Positions 7,665 through 22,658 of a DNA stretch of 64,000 nt are shown piece after piece (within the stretch, counting starts at the first letter, position 1; the number at the start of each line of letters is the position of its first letter). Made by a program: the position numbers and the translations under genes. The stretch is from IMG/VR virus record IMGVR_UViG_3300032227_000993; one strand, given 5' to 3'. This DNA is from a virus (taxonomy: Duplodnaviria; Caudoviricetes). The notes under the pieces were generated by a model, which searched no databases, was not told the origin of the DNA, and saw only the letters and a program-made list of their open reading frames with translations.

Positions 7665-7665
7665 A

Positions 7666-8214
7666 TTAGATCCGTTCGGAACATACGTCCCAGTTGATAA
7701 TCTTCCAGATGTTATCTAGGTATTTTTCTTTGTCCCACTGGTATTCAAGGCTCCATGCATGCTCCCACCAGTCAACCAGTACACAGATATCTGTCCTAAC
7801 CTGATGATTCGGGATGGTTTTAATCGTGCCCGATGTGCTAAGATATACCCAACCTGATCCCTGGATGGCCATGGCCACTTTTTTAAATTCAGCTTTGAAG
7901 TCTTCATATGTTTTAAAGTTTGATTCGATAAGTTCCAACACAGCGCCTCGTGGCTTGTTAGCACCTTTGGGTGCTTGTAGCTGTGGGAAAAACTTGTTGT
8001 GTAGGAAACTACCAGCACGATTAAAAGTGGCATCACCTTCGCCGGCATTGTAGCGTTTGGCGTAGCCTTTGGCTAGATGCTCGTAGTGATACTCGATTGT
8101 GGCAGCACTCATCACAGGCTCCAAGTCCTTGTGAGTGTAGGGCAATGGTGTAGTTTCCAGTTTGGCTGGAACTGTGCTGGCTTCTACTATGTTTATTGTT
8201 TCGCGGATATCCAT
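7666..8214 (-). CDS. Fe/Mn superoxide dismutase with short N-terminal extension
   Basis: YHYEH..KGY, LHNKFF, GSGW, DWWEHAW metal-ligand motifs. Confidence 0.88.
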
Positions 8215-8856: not shown

Positions 8857-9609
8857 TTACTCCTCAACCGTTGGACAGTTAGTCATGTTAATGGTGGTTA
8901 AATGCTCGTTTGGTACACACAACATATTTTGGTAATCAACAATGTAATAAGAATAATTTTCAATGGGACTCAGTGCCTGCTTGATTTCTTTGGCGCCTGT
9001 GATAAAGTATTCTACCCAGATGTAAGGGCGATACTTGGCAATAGATCCGAGTCCACCTGTCAGGGCTGGTATTTCAAAGCCCTCAACATCTAGCTTGATA
9101 AAATCCAACCTTGGTAACGCCATAGCATCGATACTGATAATGTCCACTACACGATCATTCATCCACCCATCTTCATCCACTGTAGTTTCATCCGATAACG
9201 AAACTGTACCAAAGTCTTGGGCTACACTATAATCTACCGCAGGTAATTGAGCTACACCTGGTTCTTTGCCAAGTCCATAATTATGTAAGAATACATTGTC
9301 TAGTCCATTAAGGGCTAGGCTGCCACTCAAGGCGTTGAACAATTGACGCTGAGGTTCAAAGCCTATGACTCTTCCACCTCGCGGTTTAATGCGCTGAGCC
9401 ACAGGCACAGTAAAGAATCCAATATTGGTACCACCATCCACCACAACACAATCATTGGGTAAGGTAGCTATGATGGCAAAGATATTGGCCAGTTCATCTT
9501 CGATGTGAGTGCGCCCGGTCTTGACCAGGGCCTCAGCTTGAAATGCGCAGGTACGGGCCACAATAAACTTGCCGTACACGCTGTCCAGTACTACAAAGTT
9601 ATCAATCAT
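8857..9609 (-). CDS. FkbM family methyltransferase
   Basis: VVVDGGTNIGFFT, GFEPQ, LDFIKLDVEGFE. Confidence 0.9.
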   Translation of the reverse strand: MIDNFVVLDSVYGKFIVARTCAFQAEALVKTGRTHIEDELANIFAIIATLPNDCVVVDGGTNIGFFTVPVAQRIKPRGGRVIGFEPQRQLFNALSGSLALNGLDNVFLHNYGLGKEPGVAQLPAVDYSVAQDFGTVSLSDETTVDEDGWMNDRVVDIISIDAMALPRLDFIKLDVEGFEIPALTGGLGSIAKYRPYIWVEYFITGAKEIKQALSPIENYSYYIVDYQNMLCVPNEHLTTINMTNCPTVEE

Positions 9610-9655
9610 CTAAGTCGCTATTGTTAATCATACTACTATTTTAACAAATTACGAA

Positions 9656-10339
9656 TTATTTGTCAACCTCTCCGTAGAACAAGTGTTGTCCTGTGCGCTT
9701 TATGTATGTTTTGGACTTGGCCCAAATAGGACGGATTCCAGCAGCATGAAAGTACATGGCCTTGTTGTATTTGGCGTGATATTCCGGATACTCGCCGTCG
9801 GCTAAGCGTTGGGCAATTTCGCGACTTTCTATCCAGCGTTCGTCATCGGACTTGGGCTTTTTTGCGTAGCCTGAACATACCCAAGAGAATTGGCAAACTG
9901 GAACCTGTTCGGTAACTGTGTGTACAGTTGTTACTTTTTCTGGAGGACCAAAATACCCTACACGGATCATTTCAGTTTTCTTGACTTCCTTGGTTTTGGT
10001 AACAACTGTGCGAGCCTTGACAACATCACAAACTGATTTACCAAAGCGTGGATCTTGGGCACGGTTGAGAGTAACAATGCCTACGGCGATTTTGCCTTCT
10101 GTGGGTTCTCCACGTGACTCATAAAATATGTTACGAGCCAAACACTCTACATCTCGGTCTGACAGGAATGGAGTGGCGATTAAGTTAACAGTACGCTCTA
10201 CAAAACTTGTAGCTTGTTCTACCACTTGACCGCTAAATGTTGTGTTGTCTGCCAACACAATCGTTTCTTGTTTTACTTCTGCTGCTTGAACTACGGTAAC
10301 GCCTACTGCTAATAATAACGATAATAAGATATTCTTCAT
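9656..10339 (-). CDS. cell wall hydrolase, SleB/Hydrolase_2 family, with signal peptide
   Basis: CLARNIFYESRGE..EGKIAVG.VTLNR, CQFSW, YFHA...P.W, GQHLFY; start at MKNILLSLLL with AGAGGA RBS. Confidence 0.9.
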   Translation of the reverse strand: MKNILLSLLLAVGVTVVQAAEVKQETIVLADNTTFSGQVVEQATSFVERTVNLIATPFLSDRDVECLARNIFYESRGEPTEGKIAVGIVTLNRAQDPRFGKSVCDVVKARTVVTKTKEVKKTEMIRVGYFGPPEKVTTVHTVTEQVPVCQFSWVCSGYAKKPKSDDERWIESREIAQRLADGEYPEYHAKYNKAMYFHAAGIRPIWAKSKTYIKRTGQHLFYGEVDK

Positions 10340-10612
10340 TGTCGTTCCTCTACAGCAATACTGTGCTGTTCCAGCGGAGCCCCCAATGGGCGCATTGACA
10401 ATAATGGTATGTGGAGAATCGTTAGATAACGAGACCTCGGCCTTCTTTGGCATTTACTCTTTTGTGTATCAACATCAATACACAATACCATATTGTCAAC
10501 GAAGAGACGTTCCGACGGTCTCTTTCGAAACAGACAACAAAATCATTGTCTGGTGCGTGACTTAGATTTGTATTCCGGACAAGCCCGTCCGGCACTACTG
10601 TTATTCTATTAC
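10340..10612 (-). ncRNA. candidate structured RNA / long 5' leader of the cell wall hydrolase gene
   Basis: At least five inverted repeats, including a 15-bp long-range stem (10395-10410 with 10485-10499); TAAGTA promoter at 10619-10624; no family recognised. Confidence 0.5.
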
Positions 10613-10691
10613 TAATAATACTTAGTGAGTTTTTACATTCATTGTATATTAAGTTAATGTTTTGTTAATTTTTTACCATAATATGCTACTA

Positions 10692-11273
10692 TTATCTATC
10701 TTCGGCCTTTAATGCGGCCCACATAGCGGTTTTTTCTTTAAGGTCAGCTTCTAACTTACGATATTGGTCGCCTACCTCTTTTAATTCTGTCCATTCTTTT
10801 TCTAATTCAGTGTTTGGAACTAGTATGTTTAATCTTTCTTCCAAGGCTTGTAGTGTGTCTACTAAACTTTTTCCGTTGATGTTGATGTCGGCATCTTTAC
10901 CTTCAAGGTTTAACTTGCCGCCGGTTATGGTATTACTAGCCCAAGGGCTTCCGCCCCCAGTACCAGTGGTATATGTGTATCCAGATCCAGTACTAAGGTT
11001 GTTAGCGGAAATAGAAGTGTTGGCGTACCTGGGCGCCACTGTAACTGATGTTGGTGTGTAAGTAGCTGTAGCGGCTGGGCTACTGATAATTACTGTACCC
11101 GAACCTGCGTTAGGAGGTACTGCCCCGTAGCCTGGGTGTAAGGATCCAGACTTTATTGCTGGCAATGGTCCAGCGGTTATGGTTCCTGTGTAGTAGCCTG
11201 GGTCTTCTGTGGTCACAGTTTCTGTTCCGTCACAGTTGTAGCTAATGTCGTATTTTTTTTCCGTAAGATCCAT
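10692..11273 (-). CDS. hypothetical protein (T/G-rich N-terminal part, coiled-coil C-terminus)
   Basis: 193-aa ORF. Confidence 0.6.
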   Translation of the reverse strand: MDLTEKKYDISYNCDGTETVTTEDPGYYTGTITAGPLPAIKSGSLHPGYGAVPPNAGSGTVIISSPAATATYTPTSVTVAPRYANTSISANNLSTGSGYTYTTGTGGGSPWASNTITGGKLNLEGKDADININGKSLVDTLQALEERLNILVPNTELEKEWTELKEVGDQYRKLEADLKEKTAMWAALKAEDR

Positions 11274-11419
11274 GTGCCATCTTTGTTATCAATCCATTCA
11301 AGTGTGTCGCCGACTTCCCAGCCGGCGGCTTCGCACACTTCATCGCCAAGATCCAAAATTAAGTCACCTGTTGCTGGATCCTTGACAATAGTTCTAGTCC
11401 AATTACTTGGCTGTGGCAA
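11213..11419 (-). CDS. AbrB/MazE-like swapped-hairpin small protein
   Basis: GDLILDLGDEVCEAAGWEVGDTLEW....GTWIL pattern. Confidence 0.55.
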   Translation of the reverse strand: MPQPSNWTRTIVKDPATGDLILDLGDEVCEAAGWEVGDTLEWIDNKDGTWILRKKNTTLATTVTEQKL

Positions 11420-11594
11420 GTGCTTCTTTCTCAGCAGTAATTTCTTTACGACGCTCTTTGATGCCTTTGCTCATTTCTTGTAAGGCCTTGCGAGCACGGG
11501 CGGCTGCAGCTTTTACACCTTTGCCTGTAAACTTTTCGTTTTCTGCGATGTAATTATTAAATGCTGTTACGATTGCGTCATGTTGTTGTGACAT
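11403..11594 (-). CDS. histone H1-like nucleoid protein (Hc1 family)
   Basis: KGVKAAAARARKAL.E..K..KERRKEI resembles chlamydial Hc1 KGNKAAAQRVR. Confidence 0.65.
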   Translation of the reverse strand: MSQQHDAIVTAFNNYIAENEKFTGKGVKAAAARARKALQEMSKGIKERRKEITAEKEALATAK

Positions 11595-11634
11595 TGTTAT
11601 TTCCTTTATAATTAAAATGTGTACTACAAGTTTA

Positions 11635-11662
11635 ATTATACACGATTTTTATCGTATGTCAA
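11635..11662 (-). promoter_or_regulatory. sigma70-type promoter TTGACA-16-TATAAT
   Basis: Perfect hexamers upstream of the Hc1-like gene. Confidence 0.7.
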
Positions 11663-11671
11663 ATTTTTAGG

Positions 11672-11914
11672 CTAGAACGAAATGTGTCGTTTTAGGTAAG
11701 TATCCCATATTAGGATATTATCCCAAGATTGGTTCCAGGTAACCACAAAGATCATTAGTGTATTATGATCAAAGATGTGCATCTTGTTGTCGTCAACTCG
11801 ACATTGTATTGACTTACTGGTATTAGACCATTTTTGTAAGTGATTGCGGGCTTCTGTGTCCCGCATGATGATGGTGTACAATGGGTCACCATTCTTATAT
11901 ATTGGCAAGGTCAT
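11672..11914 (-). CDS. hypothetical protein
   Basis: 80-aa ORF in an operon-like arrangement. Confidence 0.6.
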   Translation of the reverse strand: MTLPIYKNGDPLYTIIMRDTEARNHLQKWSNTSKSIQCRVDDNKMHIFDHNTLMIFVVTWNQSWDNILIWDTYLKRHISF

Positions 11915-11917
11915 TAA

Positions 11918-12676
11918 TTATTTACGCTCAATATCTTCTTCTCGGCAGTTGGTACCATATTGTATTTCTATTATGCGGCAAGGAGATCCAAATGGATTAG
12001 TTAACTGATGCCACGCGCCTACCTGTATTTTGTATTCTTGGTGTGTGCTTAATAGCATTGGCGGTAATTGGTATCCATCTTCGGTAATGGTATTAACTGC
12101 GCAGGCACCTTCCTCTACTATCCAGTACTCAGCTCGTTCATTGTGCTTTTGCATACTCAAGCTCTTACCTGAGTCTACTGTAAGTTCTTTAACTTTCATG
12201 CCAGGTGCTTCGTGTAGTACTCGATAGTAACCCCATTGACGTTCGGTCTTGGGTGCTTTCCATTCTTGTAAAATCCAACTGCTACTATTGGCCTTGTCCT
12301 CACCGCCTACCCCAAATACAAATTCTACACCAGGTACACTCATTTCTGGAATGTTGTCTTGTGTACGATCACCGCCATTGGCAAAAATAATATGCGCCTC
12401 TGGATAATGAGCGCGAACCTGTTCCAACAAGTGACAAGCGGTACCGTCACTGTCATCAAAAGTGTAAACTTCTTCAACTGCGGCTAGATTGTTGACTACG
12501 CATAAGCGTTCAGTCCAGGGCATGAAAGCACGGCCCTTTTTACGGGCCAGCCACTCGTCGCTGTTAATACCTACAATTAACATATCGCCCAGCAAACGTG
12601 CTTGTTTGATCAATTTAATGTGACCTGAGTGTAACGGATCGAATCCGCCACTACATACTACAATTTTTGTTTTCAT
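11918..12676 (-). CDS. cytidylyltransferase-like domain fused to a mannose-6-phosphate isomerase-type cupin
   Basis: SGGFDPLHSGH (HxGH), GINSDEWL.RKKG; RQWGYYRVL, LSMQKH..RAEYW cupin. Confidence 0.85.
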   Translation of the reverse strand: MKTKIVVCSGGFDPLHSGHIKLIKQARLLGDMLIVGINSDEWLARKKGRAFMPWTERLCVVNNLAAVEEVYTFDDSDGTACHLLEQVRAHYPEAHIIFANGGDRTQDNIPEMSVPGVEFVFGVGGEDKANSSSWILQEWKAPKTERQWGYYRVLHEAPGMKVKELTVDSGKSLSMQKHNERAEYWIVEEGACAVNTITEDGYQLPPMLLSTHQEYKIQVGAWHQLTNPFGSPCRIIEIQYGTNCREEDIERK

Positions 12677-12918
12677 TAATGTATAATTTTATTAGGACTT
12701 TCGTCTGGTAAAGAATTTAGTGCTTTGATGTACTTAGTAAACTTTTCATCTAATTCAATGATGTCATCGTCTTGGTCGGCCGCTCTTTCATTGCTCACGC
12801 CAATCAATCGCATGAGTCCGCCCATATGGATGTAATTAATGCCGTGCTTTTGTAGCACCAACATAATCTCCATGATTAGTTTGCGAGCTTCCCACTCTAG
12901 ATCTTTATCATCTGCCAT
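12676..12918 (-). CDS. hypothetical protein
   Basis: ORF abutting the next gene. Confidence 0.6.
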   Translation of the reverse strand: MADDKDLEWEARKLIMEIMLVLQKHGINYIHMGGLMRLIGVSNERAADQDDDIIELDEKFTKYIKALNSLPDESPNKIIH

Positions 12919-12958
12919 ACTATAATTTAGCACAGAAGATTTTAAAGATAAAAATTGG

Positions 12959-14374
12959 TCAGCGGGCCAGCAAGTCCGGTAGTACTAGTTTATGTACTGT
13001 AACTGTAGATGTGGCCACTTGCTGTGGTTCTAGGGCTGTTACCTTGGGAGCATTAGCGTCACGCTCAAAGTTACCAGCTACTACTTCTAAGTCCTGTACC
13101 GTTAAGTTGCCGGCCAATTGCTTGAGCTTTAGTGTAGCGGCTAGGTAAGTGTATTTGGCCTGTGCTAAATCTTTCTGGGCTGTAACCAGGACTTTTTCAG
13201 CCAATAGTACATCAACTGAAATACGCTCACCGGCCTGTACACTTTTACGCATGGCCTTGGTTAATTCGCTACCGGATTCAACAGCACGTTCTAATGCTGC
13301 TACCTTTTGACGGCTGGATACCACTAGGTCATATTGCCGACGTAATTCTGTAATCACACGACTGCGAACAGCTTCTGTATCAGCTTGTGCTTTTTCCCAA
13401 TTGGCATTGGCCTGTTTAGTTAGACCATATGTTTGTCCGCCGTTGCTCAATTGCCAAGTTGCTTGTACACCAACCATGGTGCTGTTGGCAGTTTGGTTAA
13501 TGGTAGAAACATAGTAAGAACTTTGTTGGTTGTATTGCGCAATAGCAGAGATGACCGGCGCATTGTTGCTTATCTGTTTGTTGTATTCTTGTTTGGCCGC
13601 TTCTTCGCTATTTTTGGCCGCAGCAATCTCTGCGTTGTTAGATAACGCTGTGTCTTGCCATTGGTCAAATGTCATTGCGACCGGAGAAACTTTAAAGTTT
13701 GTGCTTAATTTTTTAACTTCGGCAGCCGAGTTTAATTTAACACCCATCATTGCTTCTAGTTTACGACGAGCATTTTCTAAGTTGTCTTTGGCTTCGATAA
13801 CCTGTACATCAGCTAACTCAAAACTTGCCTTGGTTTCTAGCACTTCGGTCACTGTGCCATCACCGGCCCGAAGTCTACGTTCATTGATGGTCACTTGCTC
13901 TCGGTACGCATCACGTTGTGCTGTGTAGTAAGTAATTTGATCACGATAAAATAATACTTCTGTGTAGGCCTGTGTAGTACGCACCAATAACTCTTGTGAG
14001 TTGTGTACAAACTTGGACCGGGCCATGTCTGCTTGTGCGTAGCCTTGTTTGGCACTGGCCCAGGCATTCAAGTTGATCAATGCTTGTGTAAGTTGTACAC
14101 CACCGTTGGTACTTGGATAGGTCATGTTATTTGTTGAATAACCTGTTTGACTAATCCTAGTGGCGTTGCTTGCTTGATAAAAGTTAGCAGATATCTGTGG
14201 TAACAAACCAGCACGACCAATAATCTTGTTAGCATCTCCGGCTTCAAACTCTTTGGTCGCTACCTTGTATGCTGGATCGTTCACAAGGGCTAGGTCATAT
14301 GCCTGCATCAAATCTAGGGCATTGGCATTAGACATTAGCAACGCGGTTGATACAGCTAACAGTGACTTCTTCAT
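12959..14374 (-). CDS. type I secretion outer membrane protein (TolC/PrtF/AprF family)
   Basis: Sec signal MKKSLLAVSTALLMSNANA, then LDL.QAY..AL.NDP, GRAGLLPQI; GER..VDVL.AE near the C-terminus. Confidence 0.92.
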   Translation of the reverse strand: MKKSLLAVSTALLMSNANALDLMQAYDLALVNDPAYKVATKEFEAGDANKIIGRAGLLPQISANFYQASNATRISQTGYSTNNMTYPSTNGGVQLTQALINLNAWASAKQGYAQADMARSKFVHNSQELLVRTTQAYTEVLFYRDQITYYTAQRDAYREQVTINERRLRAGDGTVTEVLETKASFELADVQVIEAKDNLENARRKLEAMMGVKLNSAAEVKKLSTNFKVSPVAMTFDQWQDTALSNNAEIAAAKNSEEAAKQEYNKQISNNAPVISAIAQYNQQSSYYVSTINQTANSTMVGVQATWQLSNGGQTYGLTKQANANWEKAQADTEAVRSRVITELRRQYDLVVSSRQKVAALERAVESGSELTKAMRKSVQAGERISVDVLLAEKVLVTAQKDLAQAKYTYLAATLKLKQLAGNLTVQDLEVVAGNFERDANAPKVTALEPQQVATSTVTVHKLVLPDLLAR

Positions 14375-14375
14375 A

Positions 14376-15374
14376 TTATTCCTCGCGTAGTGCTGAATGA
14401 GCACGGTCTACAACAGGTTTAAACAAATAGGATAATAATGTGCGTTCACCAGTTACCACAAACACTTCAGTTGGCATACCCGGACGTACTTGATTACTTG
14501 CTAATAACTTCTTACCAGCAGGAGTTACCTCTACTTGTATCTTGTAATAAGACATTCCTGACTTGGGATCTTGTGTAGTATTGGCCGCTACCCTAGTAAC
14601 TGTTGCTGGAATACTAGGAGTGGTACTTTGATTAAATGCCGGAAACATTACTTCAACTGGAAGACCCTTGTGTACCTTGTCAATCATGTTGGTCGGCAAG
14701 TGTGCTTCTACTACCAAGGGCATATTTTGCGGGACCACTTCCATTACCTTGGTACCTGCTTGGATAACTGCGCCTGGATTGTACACTTCCAAATTGGCCA
14801 CTGTACCACTCACCGGAGCCTTGAGTTCTGCGTTGGCAAGATCAAAGTCACTAGCTGGTAGTTTGGCCTGTTCTTCGGCCAAGGCTGAACTGACCTGCGA
14901 ATAGTTGCGTTCTGCGTCAATCAACTTGTTGCGTGACATATAACCGTCTTTGGCCAGTTCACGATAACCTGCTAACTGTTCTTTGATCAAGACCAGTTGG
15001 CGTTGTTTACTAGCAATAGATTCACGGAGTGCTGTGTTCTGTGCTGTTTGCTGTGTAGCGTTCATACGAGCTAGGACTTGTCCTGCCACGACTTGGTCGC
15101 CTTCTTTGACCAGGATTTCTTTAACGATGCCGCCTTGTGCTGACTGGATAGTTTGACGATGACCGTCTGTGATGACTACGCCTGCGGCTGGTACACCTTT
15201 GTCTAACGGAGCAAGACCTGCCCACAGCATAAAGCCGCCAAATCCTACAGCTACAACCAACATACCAACACGAGCGTAATGTGTTTCATCTTGCTCGATA
15301 TCTTTGTTAACAGTAGCTTCTGCTACCACATTAAACTTGTGTTTGAGCCAGTTTTTAGATTGTGTTTTTAACAT
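14376..15374 (-). CDS. type I secretion membrane fusion protein (HlyD/PrtE/AprE family), shortened
   Basis: TM GMLVVAVGFGGFMLWA, APLDKGV.A.G, GGIVKEILVKEGD.V..GQVL, APVSGTV, G.RTLLSYLFKP. Confidence 0.92.
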   Translation of the reverse strand: MLKTQSKNWLKHKFNVVAEATVNKDIEQDETHYARVGMLVVAVGFGGFMLWAGLAPLDKGVPAAGVVITDGHRQTIQSAQGGIVKEILVKEGDQVVAGQVLARMNATQQTAQNTALRESIASKQRQLVLIKEQLAGYRELAKDGYMSRNKLIDAERNYSQVSSALAEEQAKLPASDFDLANAELKAPVSGTVANLEVYNPGAVIQAGTKVMEVVPQNMPLVVEAHLPTNMIDKVHKGLPVEVMFPAFNQSTTPSIPATVTRVAANTTQDPKSGMSYYKIQVEVTPAGKKLLASNQVRPGMPTEVFVVTGERTLLSYLFKPVVDRAHSALREE

Positions 15375-15378
15375 ATTA

Positions 15379-17079
15379 TTACTCACTTGGTTGTGCCTCA
15401 CGGTTTAAATTCATAATGTCCGACAATACCTTGTCTGTGGTACCAAATGCTGTCATCATACCGCCGTGTAAGACCATTAGCTGTGTGGTCTCTTGGATAA
15501 TGTCCGGACGATGTGTGATCAATACAACTGTAGTGCCAGCCAAACGCAACTGTCTAATGGCGTTTGTCAAGGCTGACTCACCCACTTGGTCCAAGTTTGA
15601 ATTGGGTTCGTCTAGAACAACCAAAGCTGGATCATTGTAAAGAGCACGGGCCAGGGCTACACGTTGTTTCTCTCCGCCTGATAGACCTGTACCATCTACG
15701 CCAATTGTAGTATCGTAACCGTTGGGCATACGCAAGATCATATCGTGTACTCCAGCCAGTGTTGCGGCTTTAACTACTGCTTGAGAATCAATGTTGCCAA
15801 ACCTAGCAATGTTCTCACTGATAGTACCAGCAAATAGCTCAATGTCTTGTGGCAAGTAACCAATGTTGGGTCCTAACTCATCCTTGTTCCACTTGCTAAT
15901 ATCCGCACCATCTAGTCGTACTGTACCAATTGTTGGAGCACCAATGCCTACCAACAACCTAGCTAATGTAGATTTACCTGCGCCCGACTGACCAATAATG
16001 CCCAAGCAATCACCTGCGTCAATACCAAAGTTCAAGTTCTTTAATACTGCAGCTGTGGTACCTACTGGCGCCGCTGTTACGCCTTCTACATTCAATCGAC
16101 CTACGGGTTTAGGTAATGTCATGCCCGGCCTACGAGCTGGGTTTTTAGATAACAATAGATCCAGTCGCTTGTAGGCACTGACCACGCCAGCCCATTGACG
16201 CCATACTCCAATGATTTGTTCTACTGGGGCAAGTGTACGTCCCAACAAAATACTAGCAGCAATCATCATACCCGAAGTTACTTGGCCTTTGATCACTAGC
16301 CATGCTGCTACACCAAGTATCAAACTCTGTGCCGCGGTGCGAACAAATTTGGTAACAGCCGCAATCTTGTGAGCTCGTTGGCTAGCAGTTTGTTGCAAGG
16401 ATAAAAACTTGCTGTGTTCACTGTACCAACGTTGGCGCATATTAGGTAACATACCCATGGCATCGATCACTTCTGCGTTACGCAACGTATTACCAGCCAT
16501 GTTGGTAGATCTCACACTGGCATCACTTGCTTCAGTCAAGGCCTTGTGAGATACCAACTCGTTAATCCAAGCAAGACCTACCAGCAATATTGTACTCAGT
16601 AAAGCAAATACGCCTAGCCATGGATTAAAAATAAAGATAATAGCAAGATAAATTGGAAACCAAGGAGCGTCAAAAAACGCAAACACACCTGTGCCAGTTA
16701 CAAACTGCCTGATAGTGCTCAAGTCATTCAAGGCTTGTCCAGCATTTACTCCATCTTTGGTCAAGTTCTGTTCAAACGCCGCGGTGTAAACACGTTGATT
16801 TAATTCAACGTCTATCTTGGCACCTACTCGTAACACGACCATGCTGCGAAAATATTCAATAACAGAAGTTAGTGCGTAAAGACCTGCGGCCATCACAGTA
16901 AGCATGACCAATGTGTATTGATTATGACTTGCTAACACTCTATCATAAACTTCCATCATGTACATGGATGGAACCAAAAGCAAAATGTTAATTACCACAG
17001 TAAAGATACCGATAGCATAAAACACCTGCTTGAATTTGTAAAGTGTTTGAACTATTTCGTTTTGATTATTTTCGCGCAT
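15379..17079 (-). CDS. type I secretion ABC transporter (PrtD/AprD family)
   Basis: YMMEVYDRVL.S; Walker A GQSGAGKST; LSGGEKQR; Walker B VLDEPNSNLD; ITHR. Confidence 0.95.
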   Translation of the reverse strand: MRENNQNEIVQTLYKFKQVFYAIGIFTVVINILLLVPSMYMMEVYDRVLASHNQYTLVMLTVMAAGLYALTSVIEYFRSMVVLRVGAKIDVELNQRVYTAAFEQNLTKDGVNAGQALNDLSTIRQFVTGTGVFAFFDAPWFPIYLAIIFIFNPWLGVFALLSTILLVGLAWINELVSHKALTEASDASVRSTNMAGNTLRNAEVIDAMGMLPNMRQRWYSEHSKFLSLQQTASQRAHKIAAVTKFVRTAAQSLILGVAAWLVIKGQVTSGMMIAASILLGRTLAPVEQIIGVWRQWAGVVSAYKRLDLLLSKNPARRPGMTLPKPVGRLNVEGVTAAPVGTTAAVLKNLNFGIDAGDCLGIIGQSGAGKSTLARLLVGIGAPTIGTVRLDGADISKWNKDELGPNIGYLPQDIELFAGTISENIARFGNIDSQAVVKAATLAGVHDMILRMPNGYDTTIGVDGTGLSGGEKQRVALARALYNDPALVVLDEPNSNLDQVGESALTNAIRQLRLAGTTVVLITHRPDIIQETTQLMVLHGGMMTAFGTTDKVLSDIMNLNREAQPSE

Positions 17080-17091
17080 GATTGTCTTCTA

Positions 17092-18183
17092 TTAAAGAGC
17101 ATTAAGGGTAGCGGCAATTTGTCCTGACACTGGACTAGACCATAAGTCAACACCCAATCTGGCCATTTGCTGATAGCCGGGACCACTGGTAACATACCAA
17201 GGATCATATTCACCAATGGTAACACCCTTGACTCCAGCATTTTTTGACACATTGACAAAGGCCTGATAAGCCATTACCTGCTCTTGATGATTGGTTTGTA
17301 TGCTATTGAGCGCACCTGGGTTAGAAAGGAATAACTGCCATGCTGATGTGCCTGTGCCTACGCCGGCTTGTGCTTCATCGTTGTAGTGGGCAATAAATGT
17401 TTTGTTACCATAAGCATCGGCCATATTTTTTAACAGTTGTGCGTGACCTGTAGCGTTCCAACCTGCTTCGATTTGTGCCACACTAGTGCCGGTACCGATG
17501 GGTGGTTTGACTTGATAATCTACAATATTGACCATGCCAAACACTGAGTTATTGTAAAATGCTTCGTAGCCAACTGGTCCGCTGTAGGCAGATTTAACTG
17601 CGGCGATCACTGGGGCAAAATATGCTTGAGCATTGGCACCAGTATCAAATCCCAAGTTATTACTGCCAACAAAAAAGCCATCTACCTTGTGTGCTTGTGC
17701 TTGTGCCGCAAGACCTTTGTCATAAGCCGCTACGTTGGCCCATACTTGGCTGGCACTAACCCCGGCAGCCAACGGTGAGCTTGAAGTAAACGCAGGGTCA
17801 GCTGCGTTGACTGATCCGTCTGGGTTAACACCAATGTCCACACTGGCCTTGATGTAAACTTTAAGACCAATATTTTTAGCATAGTCTACAATAGACCAAA
17901 AGTCTTTTGGTAACGGATGGCCAGCACTATCAATGCTGCCATCTTTGGCGTTGACGGAAACCTGAGCGGCCATGGTCACAGTATTGTACCCTTCGGCCTT
18001 TAGCTGTGCCAACTTTGGGTTGATGTTACCGGCTGTATTGGCTCCGCCCATTTCGTAACGTATATCTAAGTAAGTATTTTTAATTGCCATTCCTGGACTC
18101 CCTGTTTGAGGACCGGCCGAAGAACCTCCGCCGCTGCTACCACCCCCAAAAAGACTTCCAAAGAAATCAAAAAAACCGGACAT
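17092..18183 (-). CDS. putative T1SS passenger, GH113/GTA-TIM-like barrel protein
   Basis: First gene of the T1SS operon; no Cys, no Sec signal; AK..GLKVYIK..VD, Y...AA.A....V..F.VG pattern of GH113-like barrels. Confidence 0.6.
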   Translation of the reverse strand: MSGFFDFFGSLFGGGSSGGGSSAGPQTGSPGMAIKNTYLDIRYEMGGANTAGNINPKLAQLKAEGYNTVTMAAQVSVNAKDGSIDSAGHPLPKDFWSIVDYAKNIGLKVYIKASVDIGVNPDGSVNAADPAFTSSSPLAAGVSASQVWANVAAYDKGLAAQAQAHKVDGFFVGSNNLGFDTGANAQAYFAPVIAAVKSAYSGPVGYEAFYNNSVFGMVNIVDYQVKPPIGTGTSVAQIEAGWNATGHAQLLKNMADAYGNKTFIAHYNDEAQAGVGTGTSAWQLFLSNPGALNSIQTNHQEQVMAYQAFVNVSKNAGVKGVTIGEYDPWYVTSGPGYQQMARLGVDLWSSPVSGQIAATLNAL

Positions 18184-18204
18184 GATAGTTCCTTCATTGT
18201 TTGA

Positions 18205-18228
18205 AACGGGGGCCTAAGCCCCCTGTTT
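18205..18228 (-). terminator. GC-rich hairpin (GGGGGC-TTAG-GCCCCC) with weak U tract
   Basis: Inverted repeat between 18230..18562 and the T1SS operon. Confidence 0.45.
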
Positions 18229-18229
18229 G

Positions 18230-18562
18230 TTAAGCTGCAACCTTGGCTTTTGCTTTGGTTGCTACCTTGGCACCTGCGACTTTGATTTCGCCTTTCTTAG
18301 CGATCTTGGTCTTTTCTGCTAGTTTAGCAGATACTGCGTAACCTGCGTCACCTAAGGTAAATGCTTCACCTTGGGCTTGTAGATACTGTAGTGCCTCGAG
18401 CTTGGTCATTGGCTGTGGAAGCTCAATGAGATTGATGTTAGTACAATTATTTTTGTTAAGGATCTTGATACGAGCTACCAAGTCATTAGCAAAACGAGCC
18501 TTGACTGTACCGTCAGGGTTAGTTGCTGTACCTGCTACTGTAAACATTTTTTCTGATGCCAT
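18230..18562 (-). CDS. hypothetical phage protein, paralog of 51576..51986
   Basis: Shared T.AG....G..K.R.A....R...L...TK.EA...L pattern. Confidence 0.65.
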   Translation of the reverse strand: MASEKMFTVAGTATNPDGTVKARFANDLVARIKILNKNNCTNINLIELPQPMTKLEALQYLQAQGEAFTLGDAGYAVSAKLAEKTKIAKKGEIKVAGAKVATKAKAKVAA

Positions 18563-18629
18563 TTTGTGTTGCCTTTCTAAGTTGCCTATTAAGTTGATTT
18601 AAACTGCCTTTACTACAAACTACACCACT

Positions 18630-18658
18630 ATTGTAGCTGAATTCGATTATGATGTCAA
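18630..18658 (-). promoter_or_regulatory. sigma70-type promoter TTGACA-17-TACAAT
   Basis: Near-consensus hexamers; nearest promoter upstream of the T1SS operon. Confidence 0.7.
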
Positions 18659-18691
18659 CCACTTTAGTTCTTTTGGTTATCCAAACCGACC

Positions 18692-18820
18692 TTATTTGGC
18701 CTGCTCTTGGATGACCGTTTTGGTTTGGTCAATACCTTTATCTACCATTCGAGCGATGCCACTTAGCCCTACGGATGAGATAGCGATACCAACAACTACT
18801 CCTACCAAAAACTTAGTCAT
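18692..18820 (-). CDS. small membrane protein
   Basis: MTKFLVGVVVGIAISSVG, GAGGAG RBS. Confidence 0.55.
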   Translation of the reverse strand: MTKFLVGVVVGIAISSVGLSGIARMVDKGIDQTKTVIQEQAK

Positions 18821-18958
18821 TGTCTGTCTCCTCTTGTTGTTCAACAATGTAATTGATATCGTACTTGGCGCACCAATCTGCGTACTCACGCTCGAATTGG
18901 GCATATTCCTTTCGGTCCAATTCAGAATCGGTCAACTTCTTTTCTTTTAATTGGGTCA

Positions 18959-19138
18959 TTATGCTACCTCTTTCTGTTCTTCGATTAATTTGTGTGCCAA
19001 ATTCAATGCCATCATAACACCTAAGAAAACTAATCTACGCTCTTTATCGTCACCAGTACAATTTTGAGTCATTTCCATTAGTTCGTCAAAACTATTTGGT
19101 GTAGCAAATAAACCACTACGTGGAATTGGGTTTGTCAT
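18959..19138 (-). CDS. hypothetical protein
   Basis: TAATG coupling with the upstream gene. Confidence 0.55.
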   Translation of the reverse strand: MTNPIPRSGLFATPNSFDELMEMTQNCTGDDKERRLVFLGVMMALNLAHKLIEEQKEVA

Positions 19139-19524
19139 TATTTTGTCCTCACGTAAGGTTTGTTCCAAGCACCAACATGGATATCGAAATAATATGCTGT
19201 GTCAAAGTAATCTGTCATAGCATCAGAGCGATCATACCATCCTTCGCCTTTACGGAAGCCTTCGCCACGACTTGGAGCAGTCTTGACAATGTCAACCACT
19301 TCACGCAAGAACTTTTCATGCGGACCATAGTTGCCCAAATGGTATTGATTAATTTGAATGTAGCCGCGACCGTTGGGATCAACAAAGTCTGCCGGACCAC
19401 TTTTAATAGTTACTCCCACTGACAAACTGCCAGCGCCTTTGCGTACACCAAACTTGAATTTAGGAAACTTTTCTTTAAGTTCCTTACGAATTTGTGCTAC
19501 GTCTTGAGCATTAATGTAAGCCAT
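19138..19524 (-). CDS. LPD29-like (large polyvalent protein-associated domain) early protein
   Basis: IRKELKEKFPKFKFGVR....S.SV.V.IKSGP pattern; follows an early promoter cassette. Confidence 0.5.
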   Translation of the reverse strand: MAYINAQDVAQIRKELKEKFPKFKFGVRKGAGSLSVGVTIKSGPADFVDPNGRGYIQINQYHLGNYGPHEKFLREVVDIVKTAPSRGEGFRKGEGWYDRSDAMTDYFDTAYYFDIHVGAWNKPYVRTK

Positions 19525-19540
19525 CTTTTAACTCCTTTTT

Positions 19541-19586
19541 ATTAACTATGCTGCTAGTATAGCAAAAAAGGATTTAATGGTCAACC
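19541..19586 (-). promoter_or_regulatory. early promoter cassette copy 1 (GGTTGACC-17-TATACT-AGCAGCATAG)
   Basis: One of five copies sharing -35, -10 and initial transcribed sequence. Confidence 0.75.
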
Positions 19587-19601
19587 GTTTGGTAAACCCG
19601 C

Positions 19602-19625
19602 AAAAAAGCCCCGGTTACAGGGCTT
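19602..19625 (-). terminator. intrinsic terminator AAGCCC-loop-GGGCTT-TTTT
   Basis: Hairpin plus T tract downstream of the GT4 gene. Confidence 0.6.
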
Positions 19626-19638
19626 TAGAGTGTTGTTT

Positions 19639-20634
19639 TTAGACAACAGATACTAGATTTCGTTTGAATATACGCCAGCACTCAGCCCAGGTCCATTTTT
19701 GGCTGGCTTTTTTAATCCGATCATTGTTTAGGGCTAAACAGTTGCGAACGGACTGTGCTAGGTCGGTATCTAGGTATCCTGTGACACCATTTTTGATGAT
19801 GTCAATGGGTCCTGCTACAGGATAGGCAGCCACTGGACAGCCTTGAGCTAGTGCTTCGATGATGACTACTCCAAAGGTGTCAGCCACACTAGGAAACACA
19901 AACACATCAGCCAGGGCATATTGATCAACCAAGTCTTGACCATGCAGATACCCTAAGAACTCGGCTCGAGGCAATTTGCGTTCTAGTTCGGCACGATACG
20001 GACCATCGCCCACTATGATTAGGTCATAGTCGTCTTGAAACTGAATCAAATCGTCCAGTCCTTTTTCTTTTGATAGTCTACCCACTGACAATAACCTTGG
20101 GCGAGTGCGGTAAGTGCTTCGAGCTACTCGAGGTTGGATAGTTCTATCCGCACCACGAGTCCATACTACAAGATTCTTAAATCCACGACTTTCAAGATCA
20201 ACTCGCATACTTTCTGTGGTAACTAGAACACGCTCACTGTGGCGATGGAACCAACGCATATACCAATAGGTCCAGGCCACAGGAATACCATACAACTTGT
20301 TTAGGAATTCAGGAAACTTGGTATGGTAACTGGTGTTGTAGGGAATACGGTTGCGTTCGCACCACCAACGAGCAAACAGGCCTACTGGGCCTTCTGTAGC
20401 GATGTGAATATAATCCGGCTGTATCGCCTTAATTTTTTTACTGATACCATGCGGCCAGCACAAGCGAACTTCAGGATAACCAGGGCAAGCACAATTAGGG
20501 AACTGCCCGGGATCACAATAAACAATACGATACCCAGCGCGGCCAGCATGATCTTCCAGGTTCTTGAAAGTTGTGACCACTCCGTTGACTTGATGTCGTA
20601 CATTGTCTGTGATTACGAGGATTGTTTTTGGCAT
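19639..20634 (-). CDS. glycosyltransferase family 4
   Basis: NGVVTT, HIATEGPVG, SYHTKFPE, VGRLSKEKG, DVFVFPS..DTFG.V.IEALA.G.PV. Confidence 0.92.
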   Translation of the reverse strand: MPKTILVITDNVRHQVNGVVTTFKNLEDHAGRAGYRIVYCDPGQFPNCACPGYPEVRLCWPHGISKKIKAIQPDYIHIATEGPVGLFARWWCERNRIPYNTSYHTKFPEFLNKLYGIPVAWTYWYMRWFHRHSERVLVTTESMRVDLESRGFKNLVVWTRGADRTIQPRVARSTYRTRPRLLSVGRLSKEKGLDDLIQFQDDYDLIIVGDGPYRAELERKLPRAEFLGYLHGQDLVDQYALADVFVFPSVADTFGVVIIEALAQGCPVAAYPVAGPIDIIKNGVTGYLDTDLAQSVRNCLALNNDRIKKASQKWTWAECWRIFKRNLVSVV

Positions 20635-20789
20635 GAGGTAGTTATCTTAAAAGAGTCAAACTTTAACCAATATTTTACACTTTGTTGGGCCTGAACGCAA
20701 GCCTGTTCGGTGGCAAATTCAATAGTCATTCTACCCGGCACGTCTTTTGGATTGTTTATGTTTACTGCTAGTATTATCAACAGCCACAT
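20613..20789 (-). CDS. small hypothetical protein not in the ORF track (MWLLIILAVNINNPKDVPG...)
   Basis: Manual translation, 58 aa, GGAG RBS, fills the intergenic gap. Confidence 0.55.
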   Translation of the reverse strand: MWLLIILAVNINNPKDVPGRMTIEFATEQACVQAQQSVKYWLKFDSFKITTSCQKQSS

Positions 20790-21543
20790 CGTCTGTCTCC
20801 TTGGTCCAGGTTACAATTTCCCAGGATCCATTATGATTCTCGACCAGGGCAGTCATGGATTCTACCCAATCTCCATCGTTCATGTAAGTAATGCCATCTA
20901 TGGTTTTAATTTCTGCATGATGTATGTGTCCGCAAATCACACCATCATAGCCACGCTTACGACAATAAACAACAAGATTTTTTTCAAATTGAAATACAAA
21001 GTCTGCGGCTTTTTTTACGCGACCTTTGAGATACTTGCTCAAACTCCAGTAGCCAAAGCCCATACGATGACGTATCCAATTGAATTTGCTATTAAGACCC
21101 AGCACAAAGTCGTAGGCTTTGTCACCTAGGAAAGCCAGCCAAGGAGCAAGACGTGTAATGCCATCAAACAAGTCACCATGAGTGACCAGATAGTGTTTAG
21201 TGTCTACACCAATATGTTCTGCTTGATTTACCACTTCAATCAGGCCAAAGCCAATGCCTAAGGGTATTAATGGGCGAAGGAATTCGTCGTGATTGCCTGC
21301 CACATACACCACACGGGTTCCACGTTTGGCGTGGCCCATGACTCGACGAACCACATTGGTATGGCTTTGTTTCCAACGCCACTTGTTCTGTTGAATACGC
21401 CAGGCATCAATGATGTCGCCTACAAGATACAATGTTTCGCAGGTGTTGTGCTTGAGAAAATTATTAAGCGCCTCGGCTTTGCAGTCACGAGTACCTAAGT
21501 GAACATCTGAGATAAAAATTGATCGGTAAGTTTTCTCTGGCAT
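20731..21543 (-). CDS. UDP-2,3-diacylglucosamine diphosphatase-like metallophosphoesterase (LpxH/YbbF family)
   Basis: ISDVHLG, LVGDIID, YVAGNHDE, THGD.FD, ICGHIH, NDGDW. Confidence 0.88.
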   Translation of the reverse strand: MPEKTYRSIFISDVHLGTRDCKAEALNNFLKHNTCETLYLVGDIIDAWRIQQNKWRWKQSHTNVVRRVMGHAKRGTRVVYVAGNHDEFLRPLIPLGIGFGLIEVVNQAEHIGVDTKHYLVTHGDLFDGITRLAPWLAFLGDKAYDFVLGLNSKFNWIRHRMGFGYWSLSKYLKGRVKKAADFVFQFEKNLVVYCRKRGYDGVICGHIHHAEIKTIDGITYMNDGDWVESMTALVENHNGSWEIVTWTKETDDVAVDNTSSKHKQSKRRAG

Positions 21544-22220: not shown

Positions 22221-22658
22221 TTAAGAGTTAGCTTTGTGAGCTTCTAATGTCTTGGTGAACTTGTTGGCATGACTGCGTTCTGCTTTGGCCAAGGTTTCAA
22301 ACCAGTCAGCAACTTCGTCAAAGCCTTCGTCACGTGCTGTCTTGGCCATACCTGGGTACATATCTGTGTACTCATGTGTTTCGCCTGAGATAGCAGCTTC
22401 CAATGCTTCGGTAACTGTTTTAGCTGGCATACCTGTGCCTGGCTCACCTGCTCCGCCTTCGATCAAATATTCCATGTGACCGTGTGCGTGACCAGTTTCG
22501 CCTTCTGCTGTAGAACGAAATACTGCGGCTACATCTGGTGCGCCAGCGATATCGGCCATGTTCGCGAAATACAAATAACGACGGTTGGCTTGGCTTTCAC
22601 CAGCAAATGCTTCTTTCAAACTTTCTTCGGTACGTGTACCTTTGATACTTTTTGCCAT
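22221..22658 (-). CDS. rubrerythrin (short ferritin-like, no rubredoxin domain)
   Basis: [47 protein letters not shown]. Confidence 0.92.

What the first reader, a model, noticed from the sequence alone, without database searches (positions are those of the whole stretch)
12959..18183. Complete phage-encoded type I secretion system with its own passenger
Seen: four contiguous co-oriented genes (passenger, PrtD-type ABC, HlyD adaptor, TolC) separated by 12, 4 and 1 nt. All ABC motifs are intact, TolC has a Sec signal, and there are no frameshifts or transposase/integrase remnants. Both flanks are ordinary phage genes, and the nearest promoter is a sigma70 consensus at 18630-18658. Established: passenger-prtD-prtE-prtF is the canonical Apr/Prt/Has/Lip exporter layout of bacterial chromosomes and plasmids. 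I know of no characterised lytic phage that builds its own trans-envelope T1SS. Inference: the infected cell secretes a phage protein before lysis, for example to mask receptors, exclude superinfection, alter biofilm or grazing, or condition neighbouring cells.
Basis: partly seen in the sequence, partly recalled or inferred. Interest (0 to 1): 0.92.

Follow-up and report, generated by a model that had tools for sequence, protein, structure and literature searches.

The report
Jumbo phage carries complete type-I secretion system
A clade of uncultured freshwater jumbo phages has kept, under purifying selection, all three parts of a bacterial type I secretion machine, usually with a sugar-hydrolase-like protein that is probably its cargo, so infected cells probably export a phage protein before they lyse.

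Summary
On the minus strand, 12959-18183 encodes a GH113-like TIM-barrel protein, a PrtD-type ABC exporter, a HlyD-family adaptor and a TolC-family channel, 12, 4 and 1 nt apart. All three machine parts score above NCBIfam's curated cut-offs.

It is not an assembly chimera. The same junctions recur in independent assemblies and samples. The eleven phage-context ABC proteins group together, ten as one fully supported clade. The block's GC tracks each phage's own GC. dN/dS among phage copies is 0.04-0.2 for all four genes.

The nearest bacterial systems (65-72% ABC identity) are in Polynucleobacter, where only 23 of 201 species genomes have such an exporter.

The cargo reading is supported but unproven. 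The barrel protein has no signal peptide, is acidic and has no cysteine. It sits beside this exporter in phages, in Polynucleobacter islands and in one divergent contig. Wider relatives carry RTX repeats and end in Asp-hydrophobic tails. Against it: no RTX repeats or such tail here, two phage relatives lack the gene, and the canonical acid/base glutamate is missing.

I found no paper and no credible phage record with a complete T1SS. Function (surface-glycan remodelling or masking) is inference. This scan had read the same stretch before, and noted a partial phage-borne peptide exporter in another genome.

The parts
18630..18658 (-). Sigma-70-like promoter (TTGACA, 17 nt, TACAAT), the likely start of the transcription unit
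   Evidence: 11 of 12 consensus positions; no T4-type late motif TATAAATA anywhere in the window.
18230..18562 (-). 110-aa protein with a Lys/Ala-rich tail. It lies upstream of the block in every phage relative whose upstream region is covered, directly before the ABC gene where the barrel gene is missing. Probably a DNA-binding protein, not cargo.
   Evidence: No Pfam or PHROG match.
18208..18223 (.). G+C-rich hairpin (6 G-C pairs) between the 110-aa gene and the barrel gene. The T tail on the coding strand is weak, so it is a candidate leaky terminator or attenuator.
17092..18183 (-). Candidate cargo: 363-aa GH113-like (beta/alpha)8 barrel. Residues 1-31 (18091-18183) are a hydrophobic or amphipathic peptide plus a Gly/Ser/Pro linker, present in only some relatives. 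Asn175 stands where the clan GH-A acid/base Glu should be. Glu270 is at the nucleophile-equivalent position. Glu325 on strand 8 is invariant.
15379..17079 (-). PrtD/AprD-type ABC exporter: a half-transporter without an N-terminal peptidase or C39-like domain, with all ATPase motifs intact
14376..15374 (-). HlyD-family periplasmic adaptor, 332 aa, with one N-terminal membrane helix and a shortened helical hairpin
12959..14374 (-). TolC-family outer-membrane channel, 471 aa, with a Sec-type signal peptide
12676..12933 (-). 85-aa acidic protein directly downstream, conserved after TolC in four phage relatives (in L001 after an inserted lyase gene). Function unknown.
11918..12676 (-). 252-aa fusion of a cytidylyltransferase-like domain and a cupin (nucleotide-sugar enzyme), on the same strand and abutting the 85-aa gene. 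Not present at this position in relatives; L001 has a polysaccharide-lyase lipoprotein after TolC instead.
11635..11662 (-). Next sigma-70 consensus promoter (12 of 12), marking the likely downstream end of the unit

Best explanation
This is a working type I secretion cassette that lives in a clade of uncultured freshwater jumbo phages.

The cassette is related to the type I systems of Polynucleobacter-like Burkholderiaceae. In most phage copies it keeps one cognate substrate gene, a GH113-like TIM-barrel protein that lacks RTX repeats.

Proposed mechanism, in order (all steps are inferred from homology unless marked):
1. Host RNA polymerase starts at a consensus sigma-70 promoter early in infection. 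It reads through a weak hairpin into the barrel gene, the ABC gene, the adaptor gene and the TolC gene.
2. The ABC dimer and the membrane-anchored adaptor assemble in the inner membrane.
3. The phage's own TolC is exported by Sec and inserted into the outer membrane by the host.
4. The barrel protein has no signal peptide (shown). It is threaded through the channel C-terminus first, in one ATP-driven step.
5. Outside the cell it binds or remodels a surface polysaccharide of the host. This could destroy or mask receptors, or loosen capsule or matrix, before lysis.

The phage carries all three machine parts because most candidate hosts lack this exporter (inference).

My odds: cassette functional and phage-resident about 0.9; barrel protein is a cargo about 0.65; it acts on surface glycans about 0.4.
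For: Machine identity:
- All three parts score above curated cut-offs and the ATPase motifs are intact.

Phage residence:
- Virion, tail-fibre and lysis-type genes lie in the same window, with homologues in jumbo and other large phages.
- The identical ABC protein lies on a 361-kb contig.
- One 13.3-kb contig at flat depth crosses both junctions, and contigs from other samples cross single junctions.
- The same gene order and flanks are seen at about 76% nucleotide identity in an IMG/VR contig and in three further contigs.

Long residence and selection:
- Ten phage ABC proteins form one clade with 100% support.
- The block's GC follows each phage's GC.
- dN/dS is 0.04-0.2 with dS of 0.7 or more for all four genes.

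Cargo:
- The protein has no signal peptide, pI 4.5-5.5 and 0-1 Cys across the family.
- Its C-terminus is strongly conserved.
- It sits next to this T1SS in phages, in Polynucleobacter islands that also hold an RTX protein, and in a divergent contig.
- Wider relatives are either lipoproteins, or signal-less proteins with RTX repeats and C-termini such as DDFIL or ADFEVV.
- An ESM Atlas cluster of 124 proteins combines GH113, CBM60 and RTX.

Glycan theme:
- The fold is closest to GH113 mannanases.
- The neighbours include a GT4 glycosyltransferase and a nucleotide-sugar enzyme.
- A polysaccharide-lyase lipoprotein follows TolC in a relative.
- A homologous bacterial T1SS lies inside an O-antigen-type cluster.

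Host need:
- A PrtD-type ABC passes the family cut-off in only 23 of 201 Polynucleobacter species genomes.
Against: - Nothing here shows expression or secretion. No RNA run holds the stretch.
- The barrel protein has no RTX repeat and does not end in the Asp-plus-hydrophobic motif of Apr/Prt substrates.
- Two phage relatives keep the three machine genes with no barrel gene at the locus.
- The canonical acid/base Glu is replaced by Asn, Asp or Ser. The nucleophile-equivalent Glu varies in the wider family. Hydrolase activity is therefore doubtful.
- One relative has a frameshift in the adaptor gene.
- The host is only inferred.
- The adaptor model is of low confidence.
Confidence: 0.6

Rival explanations
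1. The phage T1SS works, but its main cargo is something else: another phage protein encoded elsewhere in the 361-kb genome, or a host protein. The adjacent barrel protein would then be an optional extra substrate or an unrelated neighbour.
For: Two phage lineages keep 109-aa gene, ABC, HlyD and TolC with no barrel gene between them. The barrel protein lacks RTX repeats and the classical C-terminal motif. The Polynucleobacter islands also hold an RTX protein and an unknown 496-aa protein as alternative substrates.
Against: No other ORF in the 64-kb window has an RTX repeat or shares the barrel protein's ends. The barrel-T1SS linkage recurs in three lineages. The barrel gene is under the same purifying selection as the machine. 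The rest of the genome could not be searched.
Confidence: 0.2
2. The cassette is a passively carried host-derived moron with no role in lytic infection, and it is on the way to decay.
For: It is clearly of bacterial type. One relative has a frameshifted adaptor. The barrel gene has been lost in two lineages.
Against: dN/dS is 0.04-0.2 at near-saturated dS in all four genes across phage copies. The phage clade is monophyletic, with 12-17% ABC divergence inside it. GC is ameliorated to each phage (94). The single frameshift leaves both halves stop-free and conserved, so it may be a sequencing error.
Confidence: 0.06
3. The three-part pump serves another purpose than protein secretion. It could act in efflux, or could replace the host's TolC-type channel during takeover, for example to exclude other phages or expel toxic compounds.
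For: Tripartite ABC-adaptor-TolC pumps include efflux systems. The adaptor hairpin is short, closer to that of efflux adaptors.
Against: The ABC protein scores 744 bits on the PrtD protein-exporter model, far above every other ABC model that matched, including MsbA at 195 bits. The adaptor passes the T1SS HlyD model. Homologous bacterial loci hold RTX proteins.
Confidence: 0.05
4. Artefact: host DNA was misjoined to phage DNA during metagenome assembly, or the element is not a phage.
For: The window comes from a metagenome. The nearest homologues of the block are bacterial. I did not see the capsid or terminase genes myself.
Against: Identical junctions occur in at least five independent assemblies from different studies. 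A single 13.3-kb contig at flat depth 18.8 spans both junctions, and contigs from other samples cross single junctions. The phage copies are only 56-72% identical to the nearest bacterial ones. The window holds virion, tail-fibre and endolysin-type genes.
Confidence: 0.02

Closest known systems
AprDEF / PrtDEF / HasDEF-type type I secretion systems of Pseudomonas, Dickeya and Serratia
   Same: The same three components in the same gene order, with a substrate gene upstream. The ABC protein has no N-terminal peptidase domain. It shares 54% identity with an AprD-like gene found in an unverified Pseudomonas phage record that probably holds host DNA.
   Different: Here the system is carried by a lytic-type jumbo phage. 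The adaptor is roughly 70-100 residues shorter in its helical hairpin. The candidate substrate has no RTX repeats and no Asp-hydrophobic C-terminus.
Accessory T1SS islands of Polynucleobacter (uncharacterised, found here)
   Same: These are the closest homologues of all four genes: ABC 70-72%, adaptor 56%, TolC 57-58%, barrel protein 57-64%. They have the same short adaptor and barrel paralogues that also lack the acid/base Glu.
   Different: The bacterial islands also hold a canonical GH113 paralogue with both catalytic Glu residues, an RTX protein and a 496-aa unknown protein. The direction of transfer between phage and bacterium is unresolved.
T1SS-secreted polysaccharide-active enzymes of bacteria (Rhizobium PlyA/PlyB via PrsDE, Sinorhizobium ExsH, Azotobacter AlgE epimerases); cited from my own knowledge, not checked here
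   Same: Glycan-active proteins exported by a PrtD-type T1SS to act on the producer's own surface or matrix polysaccharide.
   Different: Those enzymes carry RTX-type repeats and are chromosomal. This protein has a bare barrel and doubtful catalytic residues.
GH113 beta-mannanases (AaManA, AxMan113A, BaMan113A)
   Same: The same (beta/alpha)8 fold, with TM-score 0.62-0.74, and weak sequence similarity.
   Different: The Pfam score is 26.5 against a cut-off of 27. The acid/base Glu is replaced by Asn175. Identity is only 14-17%.
Filamentous-phage export apparatus (pI/pXI with the pIV secretin); from my own knowledge
   Same: The best-known case of a phage encoding its own trans-envelope channel, including an outer-membrane pore.
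   Different: That apparatus extrudes virions and is of the type II-secretion or secretin kind. It does not secrete a soluble protein and is not a T1SS.

Membership tests
Type I secretion system (PrtD subgroup) | ABC half-transporter of the PrtD/AprD family with intact ATPase motifs and no C39 or C39-like N-terminal domain | tested here: met
   TIGR01842 scores 743.6 bits against a cut-off of 510, covering model positions 2-543 with protein residues 14-554. Walker A, signature, Walker B and H-loop are all found.
Type I secretion system (PrtD subgroup) | HlyD-family membrane-fusion adaptor with an N-terminal membrane anchor | tested here: met
   TIGR01843 scores 277.2 bits against a cut-off of 208.65, but in three separate stretches. 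A hydrophobic helix lies at about residues 35-56. The hairpin is roughly 70-100 residues shorter than in AprE or the model, a trait shared with the bacterial relatives.
Type I secretion system (PrtD subgroup) | TolC-family outer-membrane channel | tested here: met
   TIGR01844 scores 258.1 bits against a cut-off of 225.15, with two OEP repeats. A signal peptide is visible by eye; no predictor was run.
Type I secretion system (PrtD subgroup) | Substrate with an uncleaved C-terminal secretion signal and no N-terminal Sec signal | tested here: inconclusive
   The protein has no Sec signal, is acidic, has no cysteine and has a conserved C-terminus. No sequence test defines a T1SS signal. The Asp-hydrophobic end motif is absent here but present in distant RTX-bearing relatives.
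Type I secretion system (PrtD subgroup) | RTX (GGxGxD) calcium-binding repeats in the substrate; typical of the group but not universal | tested here: not met
   No RTX-like motif occurs in any ORF of the window. Relatives P0138, P0140, P0151 and P0164 do pass PF00353.
Type I secretion system (PrtD subgroup) | ATP-dependent one-step export of the substrate | not testable with these tools
   This needs reconstitution or infection experiments. The complex prediction gave no answer.
Glycoside hydrolase family 113 / clan GH-A | (beta/alpha)8 barrel fold | tested here: met
   The model has pLDDT 80.6 and pTM 0.81. Foldseek gives E 6e-15 and TM-score up to 0.74 to GH113 structures. AlphaFold DB and ESM Atlas searches agree.
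Glycoside hydrolase family 113 / clan GH-A | Sequence match above Pfam's gathering score for PF22612 | tested here: not met
   The score is 26.5 bits against a cut-off of 27. The canonical bacterial paralogue scores 60.5.
Glycoside hydrolase family 113 / clan GH-A | Catalytic Glu/Glu pair: acid/base after strand 4 and nucleophile after strand 7 (PMC9032380) | tested here: not met
   The acid/base position holds Asn175 here, and Asn, Asp or Ser across the family. The nucleophile-equivalent residue is Glu270 here, Glu in 12 of 14 close homologues, and variable in the wider family.
Jumbo (T4-like) tailed phage | Virion and tail genes, and a genome over 200 kb | tested here: inconclusive
   The window holds virion-structural, baseplate and tail-fibre-like genes and an endolysin-type gene, with homologues in jumbo and other large phages. 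The contig is 361,177 bp long. Capsid, neck and baseplate genes are named only in earlier unchecked notes, because no whole genome was available to me.

The most novel reading that the evidence does not exclude
A lytic jumbo phage brings a complete trans-envelope secretion machine into hosts that mostly lack one. The living infected cell then releases a phage-encoded, non-canonical glycan-binding or glycan-remodelling protein before lysis. This would be an extracellular effector stage of phage infection that alters the host surface, or the shared matrix, for the benefit of the progeny.
Probability: 0.4. Interest if true: 0.88.

Novelty: new variant of a known kind. Interest (0 to 1): 0.78.

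Why it matters
As far as I know, lytic phages have not been shown to build a secretion system of their own for soluble proteins. Here a complete three-part exporter has been kept under purifying selection in a clade of freshwater jumbo phages. This suggests that some infections include a secretory phase in which the infected cell acts on its surroundings before it bursts.

If confirmed, three consequences follow:
- It adds a new class of auxiliary function to phage biology.
- It offers a compact T1SS with a short adaptor and a substrate without RTX repeats, useful for studying how substrates are recognised.
- It opens questions about how viruses reshape surface glycans and receptor availability in abundant freshwater bacteria such as Polynucleobacter.

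Tried and rejected
- Whole-genome access: none is held for this window. I could not search the rest of the 361-kb genome for capsid or terminase genes, or for other cargos.
- Megablast of the block against 50,697 phage records: no match.
- Scan of reference genomes for the barrel family: nothing found. It was also absent from 5 + 201 Polynucleobacter species genomes, so it is a rare accessory gene there.
- IMG/VR scans with the TolC and ABC alignments found only the one relative already known, plus one unrelated 13-kb contig with a 44%-identical ABC protein and a 438-aa adaptor. I did not pursue that contig.
- Complex prediction of the ABC protein with the last 80 residues of the barrel protein: no answer. 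It counts neither for nor against binding.
- Adaptor structure: poor model with pLDDT 58. Only the hairpin helices are usable.
- I first took Glu325 for the nucleophile. Alignment with the canonical paralogue showed that it sits on strand 8 and that Glu270 is the nucleophile equivalent.
- Search for other window ORFs sharing the barrel protein's N- or C-terminal peptides: none.
- The N-terminal peptide as a double-glycine leader: rejected, because the ABC protein has no peptidase domain.
- Barrel tree rooted on the canonical paralogues: the outgroup branch is too long to give a direction of transfer.
- Five literature searches found no paper on a phage-encoded T1SS. The Aeromonas phage Z90 paper mentions hlyD only among host genes.


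Full report
**What is there**

Four co-oriented genes lie on the minus strand. With their ATG starts they occupy these positions:

| Position | Length | Product |
|---|---|---|
| 17092-18183 | 363 aa | GH113-like barrel protein |
| 15379-17079 | 566 aa | PrtD-type ABC exporter |
| 14376-15374 | 332 aa | HlyD-family adaptor |
| 12959-14374 | 471 aa | TolC-family channel |

Gene callers on relatives use the same starts.
- NCBIfam places the last three above curated cut-offs: PrtD-type ABC exporter 743.6 bits (cut-off 510), HlyD-family adaptor 277.2 (208.65), TolC-family channel 258.1 (225.15).
- The ABC protein has Walker A, signature, Walker B and H-loop motifs and no N-terminal peptidase domain.
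- TolC starts with a Sec-type signal, judged by eye.
- The adaptor has one N-terminal membrane helix.

A consensus sigma-70-like promoter lies at 18658-18630. It is followed first by a 110-aa gene for a Lys/Ala-rich protein and a G+C-rich hairpin (18208-18223), and only then by the four genes. The next strong promoter is at 11662-11635. The unit therefore probably also covers an 85-aa gene, a 252-aa nucleotide-sugar enzyme fusion and an 80-aa gene. No T4-type late promoter motif occurs in the window. Early transcription by the host polymerase is the simplest reading, but it is an inference.

**Is it really in a phage?**

- No whole genome is held for this window.
- The window holds a virion structural protein, baseplate and tail-fibre-like proteins and a SleB-type cell-wall hydrolase. 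Homologues of two large proteins occur in jumbo and other large phages: Phosso, Atu_ph07 and RaK2 for one, and large Pseudomonas and Campylobacter phages for the other.
- The identical ABC protein lies on a contig of 361,177 bp.
- Earlier, unchecked notes of this scan place T4-type capsid, neck and baseplate genes elsewhere in the same genome.
- The block and both flanks recur at about 76% nucleotide identity in an IMG/VR contig. They recur in contigs from other studies and, near-identically, in a 56-kb contig.
- In one run a single 13.3-kb contig at flat depth spans 9500-21379. Contigs from other samples and another study cross the individual junctions.
- A chimera is therefore very unlikely.

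**History**

- Among the 120 best ABC homologues, the ten in phage context form one clade with 100% support. An eleventh, P0075, is sister to it and has the same 109-aa upstream gene.
- Identity within the clade falls to 83%.
- The block's GC follows each phage's own GC: 45.1 against 43.6%, 39.8 against 37.9%, and 41.7 against 39.4%.
- Pairwise dN/dS among phage copies is 0.04-0.2 for all four genes, with dS of 0.7 or more.
- The cassette is therefore old in this lineage and kept by selection.
- One relative has a single frameshift in the adaptor gene. Both halves are conserved and free of stops, so it is either a recent lesion or a sequencing error.

**Relatives in bacteria**

- The closest bacterial versions share 70-72% (ABC), 56% (adaptor), 57-58% (TolC) and 57-64% (barrel protein) identity.
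- They lie in a chromosomal island between imuB/phasin and dnaX-ybaB-recR. The recR gene there is 96% identical to that of Polynucleobacter.
- These islands hold two kinds of barrel paralogue, an RTX protein and an unknown 496-aa protein.
- The barrel family was not found in 206 Polynucleobacter species genomes.
- A PrtD-type ABC protein passes the family cut-off in 23 of 201. Four that I checked are 65-68% identical to the phage protein.
- Another abundant bacterial homologue sits inside an O-antigen-type cluster.
- The host is thus probably Polynucleobacter or a close freshwater relative. The runs that hold the stretch and carry an environment label are freshwater or lake metagenomes. This is inference.
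- The direction of transfer is unresolved.

**The candidate cargo**

- The model is a (beta/alpha)8 barrel with pLDDT 80.6. It is closest to GH113 mannanases, with Foldseek E 6e-15 and TM-score up to 0.74. AlphaFold DB and ESM Atlas searches agree.
- Pfam's GH113 model falls just short, at 26.5 bits against 27.
- Clan GH-A enzymes use a Glu/Glu pair (PMC9032380). The canonical Polynucleobacter paralogue has both, as TNE after strand 4 and FTELG after strand 7.
- The phage protein has Ser174-Asn175 at the acid/base site. Glu270 is at the nucleophile-equivalent site. That position is Glu in 12 of 14 close homologues and varies in the wider family.
- Asp180 and Glu325, in an E-Y/F-x-P-W motif on strand 8, are invariant in the close family and frequent in the wider family.
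- Classical retaining hydrolysis is therefore doubtful. The protein may be a glycan-binding pseudoenzyme or a non-canonical enzyme.

Evidence for export:
- The whole family has no signal peptide, pI 4.5-5.5 and 0-1 cysteine.
- The C-terminus is strongly conserved.
- The gene sits beside this T1SS in three separate lineages, including a divergent contig with its own promoter.
- An exhaustive profile search found 146 relatives. Those I inspected are either lipoproteins, or signal-less proteins with a C-terminal extension. Many extensions carry RTX repeats above Pfam's cut-off and end in DDFIL, EDFIL, ADFEVV or NDFTII, the classical Apr/Prt-type end.
- The domain family is thus extracytoplasmic, and some members are hallmark T1SS substrates.

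Evidence against a fixed machine-cargo pair:
- The phage protein has no RTX repeat and ends in TLNAL.
- Two phage lineages keep the machine with no barrel gene at the locus.

An N-terminal extension, a hydrophobic FDFxGxxFGG peptide plus a Gly/Ser/Pro linker, is present in seven family members including the most divergent one. It is absent from two phage relatives and from the bacterial copies. Its role is unknown.

**The adaptor**

At 330-337 aa it is shorter than AprE or the 422-position family model. The loss falls in the helical hairpin. The structural model is poor overall (pLDDT 58), but it shows two hairpin helices of about 46 and 28 residues at pLDDT 73-87. The bacterial relatives share this trait, so it marks a T1SS subfamily rather than a phage defect.

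**Mechanism proposed**

- Shown: gene content, intact motifs, conservation, selection and linkage.
- Inferred: early transcription, assembly of the ABC dimer and adaptor in the inner membrane, Sec-dependent export of the phage TolC and its insertion by the host, and C-terminus-first export of the barrel protein.
- More weakly inferred: action on a host surface polysaccharide. The grounds are the fold, the neighbouring glycosyltransferase and nucleotide-sugar genes, a polysaccharide-lyase lipoprotein after TolC in a relative, and the O-antigen context of a bacterial homologue.
- The rarity of this exporter among candidate hosts would explain why the phage carries all three parts.

**Novelty**

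- Only six of 50,697 phage records contain a TolC homologue. All six are dubious: an UNVERIFIED record, a bacterial contig, multi-contig assemblies labelled as one Acinetobacter phage, and fragments of 1.8 and 2.1 kb.
- Five full-text searches found no report of a phage-encoded T1SS.
- This scan had read the same stretch before in an overlapping window. It had also noted, unchecked, a phage-borne double-glycine peptide exporter without TolC in another genome.
- The machine itself is a known kind. The carrier, the short adaptor and the barrel substrate without RTX repeats make it a new variant.

Noticed in passing
window 18230-18562 (-), with promoter 18658-18630 and hairpin 18208-18223: A 110-aa protein with a Lys/Ala-rich C-terminal tail, histone-H1- or Hc1-like in composition. 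It has a near-consensus sigma-70 promoter and a G+C-rich hairpin after it. It lies upstream of the T1SS block in every phage relative whose upstream region is covered, including those without the barrel gene. No Pfam or PHROG match.
   Followed up: partly
window 18091-18183 (-): residues 1-31 of the barrel protein: An N-terminal FDFxGxxFGG peptide plus a Gly/Ser/Pro linker. It is conserved in 7 of the 21 barrel-family proteins compared, including the most divergent one (L099), and is missing in L001, L093 and all bacterial copies. Function unknown. Because T1SS substrates emerge C-terminus first, it could be a surface-retention or membrane tether.
   Followed up: partly
L001 14185-15075 (+): In the IMG/VR relative, a 296-aa lipoprotein (lipobox LTAC) with a polysaccharide-lyase domain (PF14099, 46.8 bits) directly follows TolC. 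The window has no such gene; after its 85-aa gene it carries a cytidylyltransferase-cupin fusion instead.
   Followed up: partly
L093 11706-12703 (+): The adaptor gene of this 88%-identical relative carries one frameshift after the motif APLDKGV. Both halves are otherwise conserved and free of stops, so it is a recent lesion or a sequencing error.
   Followed up: partly
contigs of P0023 (110 kb) and P0075 (4.3 kb); no DNA held: Two phage lineages have 109-aa gene, ABC, HlyD and TolC with no barrel gene between them.
   Followed up: partly
L003 16441-17442 (-), L004 15289-16290 (-), L090 6289-7290 (+): The Polynucleobacter T1SS islands hold a canonical GH113 paralogue with both catalytic Glu residues, next to barrel paralogues that lack the acid/base Glu, a 345-aa RTX protein and an unknown 496-aa protein. 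This is an uncharacterised bacterial secretion island.
   Followed up: partly
L091/L092 10001-14423 (+): A homologous T1SS (ABC 69% identical, adaptor 365 aa) is found identically on at least 24 freshwater contigs. It is embedded in an O-antigen-type cluster with Wzm/Wzt, several glycosyltransferases and GDP-sugar enzymes. Its cargo is unknown.
   Followed up: no
window 7338-8214 (-) and 22221-22658 (-): An oxidative-stress and iron set: Fe/Mn superoxide dismutase, an ErpA/IscA-type Fe-S protein and rubrerythrin. Relatives also carry AhpC, CMD and rubredoxin genes near the block.
   Followed up: no
window 62168-62881 (-), 46118-47077 (-), 52537-53658 (+): A fatty-acid desaturase, a D12-class adenine methyltransferase and a weak radical-SAM match among otherwise family-less ORFs.
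   Followed up: no
L089 7746-10708 (+), IMG/VR contig of 13 kb: Another viral-labelled contig has a PrtD-like ABC protein (44% identical) followed by a 438-aa HlyD adaptor. I did not establish whether it is phage or host flank.
   Followed up: no
L094 (OQ572413.1, 'UNVERIFIED: Pseudomonas phage Y12'): This unannotated 61-kb record contains AprD/AprE/AprF-like genes (54%, about 41-52% and 38% identical). It is most likely Pseudomonas host DNA in the record.
   Followed up: no
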